Shown one piece after another: positions 4,863 to 22,045 of a DNA stretch of 64,000 bases (positions are counted from its first letter, which is position 1; each line of letters begins with the position of its first letter). This stretch comes from Octopus vulgaris. Taxonomy: Eukaryota. Location: positions 96,348,001-96,412,000 of the forward strand of contig OX597816.1 in assembly GCA_951406725.2 (NCBI GenBank). Direction: 5' to 3'. The position numbers and the translations under genes were made by a program. The notes under the pieces were generated by a model. It had not been told where the DNA came from. It worked only from the letters and a program-made list of their open reading frames with translations, and ran no database searches.

Positions 4863-4908
4863 ATCTCATTGACAAGGGTAAAAAACTCGAAACATTTATG
4901 TCTGAGAT
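4863..4908 (+). ncRNA. Type I hammerhead ribozyme, U3-A8 core variant
   Basis: ATCTCA | TTGACAA | GGGT-AAAAA-ACTC | GAAA | CATTTATG | TC | TGAGAT: 6-bp stem I, 4-bp stem II (one G-U), near-palindromic stem III, GUC site. Confidence 0.75.
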
Positions 4909-5077
4909 TCCCGATAGATGGTGACACTGAACGAACTGGGTGTTTTCACACCTTTTTACCATAAGAGAGATGTTTTTTTCCACGGTAACTGTAGTGTATT
5001 TGCTTTTAGGAGTTTAGTTAAAATATGTAACAAACATATTTCAACTAACCTAAATTCTGCTCATACCTAAACACTGC

Positions 5078-5482
5078 GGTACACTTTTTGGTTATCTCAC
5101 CACCATCACAAAATTAGGTTATCTAAAAAAATTGTTTAACCCTCAATAAAACAAAAACAAAAAAAATGAAAAAATTAATAAACATGAAAAGCGAAAAGAT
5201 TAAACGTCTTATTGAATCTGATAATATTTTTATAACAAATCATACGAAACTGCAAAAAATTAATAAATAAGAAAATTCAAAAGATTAAACATCTTACTGA
5301 ACCTGATCAGATTTTTATAACAAATCATAGCATGCCTATTGAGGAGGCGAAAAGTCAAAAATGTGCTGAAGTATTGAATAATTCAATCCCTCATCATCAC
5401 ATAAACTCAATATTTTAGTGGGGAGATAACCCAATTTTTTAATGGCAATTTTTTAATGGGTGTGAGATAAGCAAAAAGTACC
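5078..5482. mobile_element. MITE with 8-bp TSD (Merlin-like; hAT not excluded)
   Basis: Imperfect TIRs GGTAC..tttttggttatctcac / gtgagataagcaaaaagtacc. Exact TSD AACACTGC at 5070-5077 and 5483-5490. Internal ~50-bp direct repeat. Confidence 0.8.
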
Positions 5483-5558
5483 AACACTGCTTTGCGCCTA
5501 TGCACCATATATATGTGTGTATGTGTTTTTATACATACTATGCGGGGTTTTTATACTT

Positions 5559-6457
5559 CATAAATAATGCTTGTTTTTTATACTTTTATTTTTCAAAATT
5601 AAGAAAAATTAAATTCTTTTAATACTCTCCTTCATTCTCTACAATGCTCTTCCATATATCTGGTAGGCTTGCAAGCTTCCTCTTCCAAGATTCATTTGTT
5701 TGTGAAGAAAAATACTCCTCCAGTATTACTTTAACCTTGTCTACTGAAAACATATTTTTTTCCGTCCAAATGATTTTGAAGATTGCGGAATAAATGATAA
5801 TCAGATAGGGTAATGTCCGGCGAATATGGTGGGTGGGGCATTGTTTCCCATTGAAACTGGACCAGCCTTTGGAATGTCATGGTCGATACACGTGGCCGAG
5901 TATTATCCTCTTGGAAAAAATACCTTTCGATTTGAAACCAAAGATGCTCTTTTTCCGATGGCATACACGTGTCAATGAATAGTTGACTGACCAAATCCAA
6001 GCCTCTCTGCTAGTTCTTTGGCAGTTACGATGACGTTTTTTTGCCACCAGGGTTTGCAGGACGTTCTCGCCAAGCGCTACAGATCTTCCACGACTAGGCT
6101 CGTCTTAAAGGCTGTAGTTTTCGGCTCGGAATTTCTGAAACCACCGTTGACACAAGCTTATGTTTATTGTCCGATCCCCATATATTGTATTGATATTCCT
6201 TAGACTTTCTGTTGCGTTGTTTGTTGCCTTTATTGAACTCATAAATATGCCGAATATGCTCCTTTGTCACTTCCATTATAGCTTTGAAAAAATAACAGTT
6301 AAAATCGAACTGCACTCTTCAGAACTTGCACTGAGAATAAGTACACAGTAAAATTACTACCTGCTTTTATAGCAAGTTGATGCAGGTAGTTTATGCCGCA
6401 CTCCGACTTTTAGTTCATGCAATTGAAAAAACCGCATTATTCATGGGATGACCCAAA
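5559..6457 (-). mobile_element. Degenerate mariner element
   Basis: MEVTKEHIRHIYEFNKG N-terminus; FQEDNTRPR and WETMPHPPYSPDITLSDYHLFRNLQNHLDGK. TIR remnant gggtcatcccatgaataatgcggttttt. Confidence 0.9.
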
Positions 6458-7518
6458 CAATATATATATAATATTTAGATATATACGAAACAACATTTAG
6501 TAGGAGTCACATATATTATTATTTAAAACAGTTTGATTCGGTTCCGAGGCACTTCAAATTCCGCAGGACCCTAACTGGAGCCCGACTCTTTCAGGCTTCT
6601 GGAATGTGGAACAGAGAGATTTAGGAAATCCAAAATGGATATTCATACATACATACATACATACATACATACATACATACATACATACATACATACATAC
6701 AAACAAACATACATACATACATACATACATACATACATACATACATACATACATACATACATACATACATAGCCAGCTATCAATGGCTATATGTTAAGCA
6801 TACTTAACGCTTAGTTTGTATATAATGTCCATAGGCCAGTTTCGGCAGTATTTATTCTGAGATAACTTCTCTTATGAATTTGCCCTGTTAAAAATACAAG
6901 AAATGTAAGAGAGAAGCGAAGATTTGTCCCCGAAGCGTCCAGTGAGATGTGTTTTGGCCATTTTGGCAAGTCCATCTTATCTCAGGACAGATACCGCGGT
7001 AAGTAGTTTTATACGTAAATCAGAGTGGTCAGTGGCGCGTATTTGAACAACATATAAAAAAATATTCGGATATATAAAATCCCATACAGCATAAATTCTA
7101 GATGTATTACAAATATATGCTCCTCTACAAAATGTGTCATAATTACCAAATAACAATTTAAACCAGTTCCACTTGAGAAGGAAACATAAACCCAGAATGA
7201 AGATTATCCAAAAGTGACATGTCTTAAAACCTCTCAAGTAGGGTCCGTATGATTCTTGGGAATCCATATAAGATTTTGTTGTTAAAATTTGTGCAATAAA
7301 TTGTTTAATTTTTAAATGTCTTTTTACGCAATTTCTACTAATATTTAATTATAAAAATATAATTTAGTTATGATAGATGTAATTTTTAAACATCGAATGG
7401 TTATGGTGGTAGGATGGGGCGGGGCAGTAGAGTGAAATAGGAATCAAAAGGGTCCATTCTTGAGACACACTATTTTAAAGGAAAAGCACAGGATTATTAA
7501 CTGGAGATTAGAGGAGAG

Positions 7519-7561
7519 TCATGCATATGTGTTTCTCGCTTAATAGCTGTCATCAGCATGA
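7519..7561 (-). ncRNA. Degenerate hammerhead-like motif
   Basis: Minus strand: TCATG CTGATGA CA-GCT-ATTA-AGC-GA GAAA CACATA TG CATGA. 5-bp stem I; the cleavage position is G, so likely inactive. Confidence 0.45.
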
Positions 7562-20485: not shown

Positions 20486-20589
20486 CCCCTGACGAAATGC
20501 CCAATTTACGATATTCGATATGAAAATTTGAATTAATTTAATTTAATTCCTCAAATTGAATTAATTGGGCATGTAAACAGCTGTAGGTG
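20486..20589 (+). ncRNA. Degenerate hammerhead-like motif, long stem II
   Basis: CTGACGA (20489), perfect 10-bp ATGCCCAATT/AATTGGGCAT, GTAAA in place of GAAA, palindromic ACAGCTGT, then A and GG pairing with the upstream CC. Confidence 0.6.
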
Positions 20590-20644
20590 TTAAGAATTTG
20601 ATGTTATACTGAATGGAATTTGTTGAAATAAATTAATGTTTATA

Positions 20645-20877
20645 CAAGTTTGGCCAAAAGTGACCCGGCATTAAATCAAAATTGCAGAAATACTATATGT
20701 AATTCTGTATTGGCTCGAATGGAAAAATGTGTCGCTCTAGAAGGACTTCAGTTTGATCGATTTTCATCATGTTTTATATTTAGATGCTCTTATTAAATTC
20801 ATTCAGTTGTTAAGCATAAATAAATCTTCGAATTAAACCGTTTTGATTTACTGTCAGGTGACTTTTGGCTAACCTTG
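20645..20877. mobile_element. Tc1/mariner-type MITE
   Basis: ~37-bp TIR caagtttggccaaaagtgacccggcattaaatcaaaa / ttttgatttactgtcaggtgacttttggctaaccttg, with TA flanks. Confidence 0.85.
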
Positions 20878-21094
20878 TATATTAATTTCTCTAATTTCTT
20901 TTTCAAATAAAAGAATATATATATATGATTTGTTTCCTTGTTTCAGCCAAGAGATTGCGGCCATGCTGGGACATGGAGAATTTTACGGATACATGAACAC
21001 ACCACCTCCGGTTGTCAAGCACTGATGGTGGAAAAACATATATATACATATATCTATATATAAAACAGAGAACGTGTGTGTGTGTGTGTGTGTG

Positions 21095-21400
21095 TTTGTC
21101 TGTATGTATGTATGTGTGCATCATTAAAACTCAAGAACTACCCAACCAATTTCATTCAAATTTTACACATGCCTTAGATAGGGTCCATGCAGTGTCATGG
21201 GTCAAAAACATTTTCAGTTTCTTGCCTATTGCGAGGCCGGAGCAAGCTCTTATCTCTTACACTATTGCAGTATTACGTGTGAAAAGTGAAAGAAAACAAC
21301 TGTGTTGTAATGTGAGATAATACTTTCAGTTTCACTATTAATACTTCCGCTGAGTATATAATATATTCGTAGTGAAACTATTGATACTGAAACTATTATC
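21095..21400 (+). mobile_element. Possible Helentron/DINE-like nonautonomous element core
   Basis: (TGTC/TGTA)n followed by aaaactcaagaactacccaaccaatttcattcaaattttacac. Resemblance from recall only. Confidence 0.35.
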
Positions 21401-21551
21401 TTACATATATACATGGATGTATATATATATATATATATATATATATGTGTGTGTGTGTGTGTGTGTGTGTGTGCGTGTGTATAGATATATGTGTATTATG
21501 TATGTCTATATATATATATATATGCATGTATATATGTATATATGTGTCTAT

Positions 21552-22045
21552 CACTCAGACGTAGATGCACACTGCATCGACAGCAGATTGCATTCCCAGA
21601 ATACAGAATGATACCCTTTAGTGAGCACATTGAGAAATGCGCAAAGCAACTACTACCACAATTTTTAATCTTTCCATTCTACCAATGTGCTATCGGAACA
21701 CCAACACAAATTAGACTAAACAAGGAAACATTCTTCATTGAAAAATACAAGCCCAAACTTAACCATTCCAACATACTTATACAGAGAAACTCAATCCAAA
21801 AGAAAGGCAAATAATTTTAAGCGATTATCTCCCTTACACCGGAAGAAATCACTTATTATCTAGATCTCCGCTCAACGTAAACATAACGATTTAAGAAATT
21901 TGAAAAGCTGAACGCGAAACCGGTCATTTCTTCTAAATTATGTCGTTGTATGAAAAAAATTTATAACATTCTTCAGACATATTGACTCAAATATATATTT
22001 TTTAACCTTTTAAAACAAGCCTTCTGTAGTTTTTTCACTTTTTAC
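21552..22045 (+). mobile_element. 5'-truncated Penelope-like element (GIY-YIG C-terminus and pLTR)
   Basis: LRRRCTLHRQQIAFPEYRMIPFSEHIEKCAK...IFPFYQC...RLNKETFFIEKYKPKLN, homologous to 3900-4100. Hammerhead downstream; flanked by TA-rich microsatellites. Confidence 0.85.
21893..21932 (+). ncRNA. Minimal type I hammerhead ribozyme, U3-A8 core variant
   Basis: AAGAAAT | TTGAAAA | GC-TGAAC-GC | GAAA | CCGG | TC | ATTTCTT: 7-bp stem I, palindromic ACCGGT stem III, GUC site. Lies just 3' of a GIY-YIG remnant. Confidence 0.78.

What the first reader, a model, noticed from the sequence alone, without database searches (positions are those of the whole stretch)
4863..21932. Two different Penelope-like elements carry hammerhead ribozymes with the same compensatory U3-A8 core
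Seen: at 4863-4908 and 21893-21932, each 3' of a GIY-YIG remnant, there is a complete type I hammerhead fold (perfect 6- and 7-bp stem I, stem II, GAAA, palindromic or near-palindromic stem III, GUC). The cores read UUGACAA and UUGAAAA instead of CUGANGA, and the stems of the two motifs are unrelated in sequence. Established: positions 3 and 8 form a Watson-Crick pair in the active hammerhead, U3-A8 variants are known but uncommon, and PLE terminal repeats carry minimal hammerheads. Inference: the paired C3U and G8A change in two families, with the rest of the core intact, looks like covariation rather than decay. That would define a lineage-specific ribozyme class that CUGANGA-based searches miss.
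Basis: partly seen in the sequence, partly recalled or inferred. Interest (0 to 1): 0.75.

Follow-up and report, generated by a model that had tools for sequence, protein, structure and literature searches.

The report
Hammerhead core pair swapped three ways
Both motifs are copies of predicted self-cutting RNAs (hammerhead ribozymes) in two abundant jumping-element families, with a known U-A swap of one core base pair; in this genome that swap is the commonest form found, and a sister family carries an A-U version that I did not find in print, which likely reflects selection to keep the pair, though cutting is untested.

Summary
Both folds are real and not chance. U3-A8 is the family state, not decay: 24 of 27 and 94 of 100 copies, none C3-G8. 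It is not a new class: Cervera and De la Pena 2014 reported about 1,300 U3-A8 hammerheads in Schistosoma Penelope elements. Motif 2 lies in a young Penelope-like element (PLE). Motif 1 belongs to a separate 340-nt non-coding retrozyme-like repeat joined to the adjacent GIY-YIG element, whose own hammerhead is canonical C3-G8 (21 of 25 copies). With one genome-wide descriptor: U3-A8 4,260, C3-G8 1,220, purine3-pyrimidine8 1,271 (93 of 100 listed A3-U8), U3·G8 411, C3·A8 221. The A3-U8 hits form a PLE clade related to motif 2's family, with compensatory stem I changes; I found no natural A3-U8 in print, but five key papers were unavailable. Against strict covariation: small U·G and C·A subfamilies also spread, and a tree-based test had no power. 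No RNA or cleavage evidence. This scan already noted U3-A8 retrozymes in this and other genomes, and A3-U8 in two other genomes.

The parts
2690..4542 (+). Family F3: 5'-truncated, frameshifted Penelope-like element (RT fragments about 2700-3690, linker and GIY-YIG endonuclease about 3658-4092, 3' UTR to 4542). Its own hammerhead (C3-G8, about 100 nt further 3' in other copies) is missing here.
   Evidence: tblastn with an F2 protein, 30-62% identity; blastn to locus L093 over 3325-4542 at 88%; 29 flank-selected copies aligned; cores C3-G8 in 21 of the 25 copies that keep the hammerhead region
4541..4581 (+). Family F1 (340-nt retrozyme-like unit), unit positions 298-338
   Evidence: blastn of the L030 monomer on the window; present just 5' of the hammerhead part in other copies
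4582..4813 (.). Short DNA-transposon-like insertion with imperfect terminal inverted repeats of about 33 bp, in a TA context, splitting F1
   Evidence: inverted repeat alignment; absent from the other F1 copies; Tc1/mariner-like label is recalled, not tested
4814..5077 (+). Family F1, unit positions 1-260, with a long extended stem I around the hammerhead
   Evidence: predicted fold
4863..4908 (+). Motif 1: type I hammerhead, U3 at 4869, A8 at 4874, predicted cut after C4902; 6-bp stem I, 4-bp stem II
21548..22020 (+). Family F2: 5'-truncated 3' end of a young PLE (C-terminal end of the GIY-YIG endonuclease 21548-21811, then 3' UTR); 3' boundary approximate
   Evidence: 98% to L035; open RT+EN frames of 368 and 520 aa in L035 and L047; Pfam RVT_1 E 1.9e-6 and GIY-YIG E 0.013, both under the curated cut-offs
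21893..21932 (+). Motif 2: small type I hammerhead, U3 at 21900, A8 at 21905, predicted cut after C21925; 2-bp stem II, palindromic stem III

Best explanation
Both motifs are type I hammerhead folds whose families carry U3-A8 in place of C3-G8; they likely self-cleave after GUC to cut unit-length RNA out of tandem or read-through transcripts, and selection on that step likely keeps positions 3 and 8 paired while letting the pair change identity. Motif 2 is the terminal-repeat hammerhead of a young protein-coding PLE; with 2-bp stems II and a 6-nt palindromic stem III it would need two copies to form an active dimer (inferred). Motif 1 is the hammerhead of a 340-nt non-coding retrozyme-like unit; its RNA would be cut to monomers, circularised, and copied back into DNA by a borrowed PLE reverse transcriptase (inferred from copies that run past one unit and carry inverted arms). 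Across families the pair occurs as C-G, U-A and A-U, with small U·G and C·A subfamilies as likely stepping stones.
For: Shown: family states with 3/8 left free: F1 24 of 27 U-A, F2 94 of first 100 U-A, F3 21 of 25 C-G, A-U subfamily 97 of first 100 of 490. Same descriptor genome-wide, with reversed-pattern controls: U-A 4,260 (57), C-G 1,220 (17), purine-pyrimidine 1,271 (138), U·G 411 (57), C·A 221 (27). A3-U8 copies with an endonuclease form one clade, 12 rows, 100/99, on a tree with F2 and F3; going from U-A to A-U needs two transversions. Their stem I covaries: pair 2.3-1.3 is A-U 23, G-C 16, G-U 3 of 45; 84% of cells paired in register against 16-53% when slid. In one retrozyme clade C-G occurs on both sides of a 100/100 branch, mixed with U-A. 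F1: 340-nt period, 15 of 49 loci longer than one unit, 15 of 49 with an inverted arm, no PLE protein hit in 56 loci, 49 unique, circular fold z -5.4. From papers: U3-A8 occurs in nature and the covarying pair is cited as active in vitro (PMC3088659); PLE hammerheads work weakly and as dimers (PMC4209133); 350-390 bp retrozymes in a mussel (PMC7229834).
Against: No expression or cleavage data. Counts are of copies, not independent events; on the retrozyme tree the independent-pairs test found only 2 usable pairs, p 1. Non-Watson-Crick subfamilies did spread: a U·G subfamily of F2 (7 rows, SH-aLRT 100), U·G retrozyme subfamilies and a C·A subfamily with a tandem trimer. 35 of 46 sampled F2-clade copies lack A1.1 and need an extra unpaired U before U3 (5 of the 46 were picked for U·G). 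Seven of the 38 F1 rows that cover the core have C at position 4 (counted by eye). In a pairwise mutant scan of one type III hammerhead only the C-G to G-C swap was rescued, other doubles had low activity (PMC9901934). The hammerhead fold is not the predicted minimum for either isolated motif: -4.3 against -7.3 and +3.5 against -3.0 kcal/mol.
Confidence: 0.72

Rival explanations
1. Relaxed or lost ribozyme: the 3/8 states were fixed by drift in master copies of elements that do not need cleavage, and the excess of paired states comes from a few large bursts.
For: Mismatch and wobble subfamilies spread; most sampled F2 subfamilies have an altered stem I junction; Naiad PLEs proliferate without a canonical hammerhead (PMC8557442); low activity of non-G-C doubles in one construct.
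Against: Three different Watson-Crick states dominate the large families; U4, G5, A6, A9 and GAAA stay constant while stems change; stem I of the A3-U8 clade and of the retrozyme clade shows compensatory changes. The C·A subfamily is small: 12 of the first 100 of 221 hits, against 21 of the first 100 of 1,220 for its C-G sister (counted by eye).
Confidence: 0.18
2. Copy-level decay: the families were C3-G8, and C>T plus G>A changes in individual copies produced the window motifs.
For: Both changes are common transitions; in F1 position 7 is C, so a former G8 would lie in a CpG.
Against: 0 of 27 F1 and 0 of 100 F2 copies are C3-G8; all 35 hits in 29 flank-selected F2 loci are U-A; F2 copies are 92-99% identical.
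Confidence: 0.01
3. F1 is not a free retrozyme but the solo terminal repeat of an autonomous PLE that I did not find, so the reader's 'two PLEs' would stand.
For: Insertion structure is PLE-like (inverted arms in 15 of 49 loci); retrozymes are proposed to derive from PLE terminal repeats (bioRxiv 10.64898/2026.07.22.740005); only about 1.5 kb flanks and three PLE query proteins were tested.
Against: Upstream of the hammerhead F1 runs into its own 3' part, closing a 340-nt circle; no PLE protein hit in 49 unique loci.
Confidence: 0.12

Closest known systems
U3-A8 minimal hammerheads of Schistosoma mansoni Cercyon PLEs (Cervera and De la Pena 2014, PMC4209133)
   Same: Type I hammerhead in the terminal repeat of a PLE, same U3-A8 swap, over a thousand mostly solo copies, palindromic stem III suited to dimers.
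   Different: There U3-A8 (about 1,300) was fewer than the canonical minimal form (about 2,000) and had long stems II with a bulged base after A9. Here F2 has a 2-bp stem II, a 7-bp stem I and no bulge, U3-A8 outnumbers C3-G8 3.5 to 1 under my descriptor, and a related clade has A3-U8.
Metazoan non-LTR retrozymes (Cervera and De la Pena 2020, PMC7229834; Li et al. 2026, bioRxiv 10.64898/2026.07.22.740005)
   Same: F1: non-coding 340-nt unit, GC 38%, strongly folded, one type I hammerhead per unit, head-to-tail continuation.
   Different: F1 is old (median 84% to a reference copy), occurs as one to under two units and not as long arrays, and carries U3-A8; circular RNA not shown. The passages I read mention no U3-A8 retrozyme.
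Natural hammerhead core variants (Perreault et al. 2011, PMC3088659)
   Same: C3-G8 covarying to U3-A8 in several natural examples.
   Different: Described as rare; A3-U8 is not mentioned in the passages read or found by my term search of the 11 supplementary files (figures are not searchable).

Membership tests
Type I hammerhead ribozyme | Three helices around the junction, helix I open | tested here: met
   stem covariation across subfamilies
Type I hammerhead ribozyme | Conserved core U4 G5 A6 A9, G12 A13 A14, A15.1-U16.1, H17 | tested here: met
Type I hammerhead ribozyme | Watson-Crick pair between positions 3 and 8 | tested here: met
   U-A in both motifs and in 24 of 27 and 94 of 100 family copies; canonical C3-G8 identity not met
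Type I hammerhead ribozyme | Match to an Rfam hammerhead model | tested here: not met
   no hammerhead family at E up to 10 around either motif; none at gathering score in six loci including two C3-G8 ones, so the miss is not due to the swap alone
Type I hammerhead ribozyme | Self-cleavage after H17 | not testable with these tools
   only contigs were available, no raw RNA reads
EN+ Penelope-like element (family F2) | Single ORF with RT followed by C-terminal GIY-YIG endonuclease | tested here: met
   520-aa and 368-aa open frames; Pfam RVT_1 then GIY-YIG, below curated cut-offs
EN+ Penelope-like element (family F2) | Hammerhead in the 3' terminal repeat; inverted or partial-tandem copies | tested here: met
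   hammerhead about 80 nt after the stop; inverted pairs
Neptune or Nematis clade | Cysteine linker between RT and EN; placement with reference elements | tested here: inconclusive
   CxxxxCxxC linker present (feature per PMC8557442); no reference PLE proteins were on the tree
EN+ Penelope-like element (family F1) | RT and GIY-YIG ORF in the same element | tested here: not met
   no tblastn hit in 56 loci, 49 unique
Non-LTR retrozyme (family F1) | Non-coding unit of 150-450 bp, low GC, with type I hammerhead | tested here: met
   340 nt, GC 0.38
Non-LTR retrozyme (family F1) | Tandem repeats with two or more complete hammerheads | tested here: inconclusive
   15 of 49 loci exceed one unit, longest 576 nt; no long array seen, unlike the 353-363 nt families
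Non-LTR retrozyme (family F1) | Expressed as linear and circular RNA | not testable with these tools

The most novel reading that the evidence does not exclude
This genome holds a natural mutational walk of the hammerhead's tertiary 3-8 pair: active retroelement families with C-G, U-A and A-U, linked by U·G and C·A intermediates that themselves transposed. A3-U8 would be the first large natural family with a purine at position 3, and canonical-core searches would have missed about four fifths of the hammerheads of this design here. Copy numbers of sister subfamilies would then give an in vivo read-out of how much cleavage a Penelope element or retrozyme needs, a question still open.
Probability: 0.4. 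Interest if true: 0.65.

Novelty: new variant of a known kind. Interest (0 to 1): 0.45.

Why it matters
The role of hammerheads in Penelope elements is unproven; one paper even suggests they may be passengers (PMC8557442). Sister families that differ at one core pair, with three paired states and rare unpaired ones, argue that the active fold is under selection, and they give ready-made natural constructs to test it. In practice, hammerhead and retrozyme censuses built on CUGANGA undercount such genomes several-fold. The two window motifs alone add only a new host for a known variant.

Tried and rejected
Rfam: the whole-window scan listed only microsatellite-driven matches among the 150 of 363 rows shown; local scans found no hammerhead. 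Pfam on ten short window frames: no RT or endonuclease hit. RNA evidence: no RNA holder listed; laying contigs of four runs on F2 and on a retrozyme array cannot show ends or expression. In one search no variant was listed at 21900 or 21905 in the three runs that cover them; one contig of organism B carries both C>T and G>A at the core. These show presence only. Independent-pairs test on the retrozyme tree: no power. AU test for U-A plus U·G PLEs as one clade: not rejected, p 0.30, and not shown. Rows dropped: 8 of 63 from the retrozyme tree for unalignable flanks, 23 of 65 from the F2 tree for short upstream homology, 3 of 27 from the endonuclease tree as duplicate or rearranged. The F3 tally failed through a faulty expression and was redone from the alignment. 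Rejected: copy-level decay; motif 1 as the hammerhead of F3; a new ribozyme class. Papers not held: Przybilski and Hammann 2007, Lunse et al. 2017, Martick and Scott 2006, Nelson and Uhlenbeck 2008, Hammann et al. 2012; any of them may report natural or tested A3-U8. Supplements not seen: file 1 of PMC4209133, both files of PMC9901934 (listed only), and those of the bioRxiv preprint. Not done: counts for pyrimidine-pyrimidine and purine-purine 3/8 states, a genome-wide search for an autonomous parent of F1, a census of hammerheads outside my descriptor.
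Full report
1. Observation. The window lies in a 2.8 Gb animal genome, G000. A scan for type I hammerheads (stem I of 5 bp or more, paired stems II and III, GAAA, UH) with C-G, U-A, U·G, C·A and purine-3 or pyrimidine-8 cores found exactly these two on 64 kb, both strands; 200 shuffled windows gave 0.005 U3-A8 hits each. 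Motif 1 has a 6-bp stem I and 4-bp stem II. Motif 2 has a 7-bp stem I but only a 2-bp stem II and the palindrome ACCGGU as stem III. Rfam does not detect either, nor C3-G8 hammerheads of this genome.

2. What carries motif 2. Window 21548 to about 22020 is the 3' end of family F2. The 40 best copies are 92-99% identical. [quoted passage not shown] So F2 is a young EN+ PLE of Neptune or Nematis type; the clade is inferred from the linker. With positions 3, 7 and 8 left free, 1,087 genomic copies match (control 0); the first 100 listed are U-A 94, U·G 4, G·A 2, C-G 0. In loci chosen by the upstream flank alone all 35 hits in 29 of 30 loci are U-A.

3. What carries motif 1. The RT and GIY-YIG remnant at 2690-4542 belongs to family F3. 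In 29 other F3 copies chosen by the 4400-4578 flank, homology to the window ends at 4542. About 100 nt further on these copies carry their own hammerhead with a canonical CUGAAGA core: C-G in 21 of the 25 that keep the region; 4 of the 29 lack it. Motif 1 lies in family F1, which occupies 4541-4581 and 4814-5077, split by a short inverted-repeat insertion. F1 has a 340-nt period. Of 49 unique loci, 15 run past one unit and 15 have an inverted arm within 400 nt; 3' ends cluster at unit positions 220-285 and 5' ends vary. No locus gave a tblastn hit with three PLE proteins. One monomer folds as a circle with z -5.4. This is the anatomy of a non-LTR retrozyme (PMC7229834, passages). With 3/8 free, 27 copies match: U-A 24, C·A 1, U·G 1, G·A 1.

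4. Genome-wide states. One descriptor (core, G10.1, 5-16 nt, C11.1, GAAAC, 2-6 nt, GUC; no pairing required) gave, with reversed-pattern controls: U3-A8 4,260 (57), C3-G8 1,220 (17), U3·G8 411 (57), C3·A8 221 (27), purine3-pyrimidine8 1,271 (138). U3-A8 is 58% and C3-G8 17% of these 7,383. The odds ratio among the four pyrimidine-purine states is 57, but copies are not independent. The descriptor misses hammerheads such as F3's, so the shares apply to this design only. Some U·G rows belong to families without a normal stem I and may be misread. U3-A8 hits include F2, F1, tandem arrays of 358-363 nt and further families.

5. The A3-U8 clade. 93 of the first 100 purine-pyrimidine rows are A3-U8 (counted by eye), nearly all with the same 2-bp stem II and ACCGGU stem III as motif 2. 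For one subfamily with 3/8 free, 490 copies match (control 0) and 97 of the first 100 are A-U. Among 40 loci fetched, 12 copies had enough endonuclease sequence 200-380 nt upstream for a tree; they form one clade (100/99) apart from F2, with F3 as outgroup. Protein identity to F2 is mostly 40-63% per piece. Stem I covaries over 45 hits: pair 2.3-1.3 A-U 23, G-C 16, G-U 3; pair 2.4-1.4 U-A 36, A-U 4; 188 of 225 cells paired in register, against 16-53% when slid. The hits were chosen by the core pattern, not by stem I.

6. Switching within one retrozyme clade. I sampled all four pyrimidine-purine states on purpose, so proportions mean nothing. On a tree of 55 of 63 units with columns 3 and 8 removed, position 3 needs 4 changes and position 8 needs 5; 13 C-G rows are sister to 7 C·A rows (96/99) inside U-A and U·G lineages, and a second C-G family lies on the other side of a 100/100 branch. 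With a midpoint root this reads as a return from U-A to C-G through C·A; the root is not established. The independent-pairs test had 2 usable pairs and p 1. So the pair changes by single steps, and the intermediates can transpose, at lower copy number (C·A subfamily 12 of the first 100 of 221 hits; its C-G sister 21 of the first 100 of 1,220).

7. Mechanism. Shown: the folds, the family states, the element anatomy. Inferred: cleavage after GUC; for F2 a dimeric form, since the palindromic stem III gives a 6-bp duplex of -8.3 kcal/mol while the monomer fold costs +3.5, as found for PLE hammerheads (PMC4209133); for F1 monomer release, circularisation and copying by a PLE enzyme. Results against: 35 of 46 sampled F2-clade copies lack A1.1, a U·G subfamily arose within F2, an F1 subfamily has C4, and in one deep scan only the C-G to G-C swap rescued activity (PMC9901934). 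I put selection for an active, paired core at 0.72 and a relaxed ribozyme at 0.18.

8. What is known. PMC4209133 (parts 1-2 of 4 read; supplement searched) reports the U3-A8 covariation in Schistosoma PLEs, about 1,300 hits. PMC3088659 (passages; supplements term-searched) reports natural U3-A8 and cites in vitro activity of covarying pairs. PMC8557442 (passages), bioRxiv 10.64898/2026.07.22.740005 (part 1 of 5 and passages), PMC3884650 and PMC6765202 (passages) give context. Searches for A3-U8 or G3-C8 with hammerhead, for C3A, G8U or positions 3 and 8, for natural core variants and for hammerhead with octopus listed no paper reporting a natural A3-U8 family, judged from listings. Five central papers were not held, so absence from print is not established. 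Earlier notes of this scan, read after my trees and counts for U-A were done, describe U3-A8 retrozymes in this and other genomes, one with four versions of the pair, and A3-U8 in a probable frog PLE and in a phage; they are unchecked leads.

9. Verdict. The motifs are real; the swap is a known variant; one of the two carriers was misassigned. The added value is the prevalence of U3-A8, the A3-U8 sister clade and the stepwise switching, which make the function of Penelope hammerheads directly testable. Interest 0.45.

Noticed in passing
G000 loci L328-L347, L368-L387: Large PLE clade related to F2 whose hammerhead has A3-U8, about a thousand descriptor hits, with compensatory stem I changes.
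   Followed up: yes
window 4538-4545: F3 PLE is joined directly to the F1 unit with a short AT-rich overlap and has lost its own hammerhead; both copies are of similar age. Could be a reverse-transcriptase template switch, which would name F3 as a carrier of F1, or an insertion plus deletion. Seen in 1 of 50 F1 loci.
   Followed up: partly
L121, L133, L191, L288-L324: Most sampled F2 subfamilies lack A1.1, leaving an extra unpaired U between stem I and U3; one such subfamily also has U3·G8 and long open frames.
   Followed up: partly
L008, L010, L012, L023, L024, L028: F1 copies with C at position 4 of the core, mostly sharing a CAAUAA loop 2; looks like a subfamily that spread with a damaged core.
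   Followed up: no
L124-L132, L147-L150 (362 nt); L157-L163, L210, L228, L234 (358-360 nt); L164-L177 (353 nt): Young tandem retrozyme arrays with U-A, C-G and C·A cores; four monomers fold as circles with z -3.1 to -7.9.
   Followed up: partly
L354-L357, L360-L363, L348-L353: Families with hammerhead core, stem II and stem III but no stem I in the usual register; may be the rearranged hammerheads of earlier scan notes.
   Followed up: no
window 4582-4813: Short inverted-repeat DNA transposon-like insertion inside F1.
   Followed up: partly
window 5620-6320 (-): Frames with mariner-like transposase motifs (label recalled; Pfam gave no hit on the one frame tried).
   Followed up: no
window 22550-23380 (-): Frames with LINE-like reverse transcriptase motifs (label recalled; no matching Pfam hit).
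   Followed up: no
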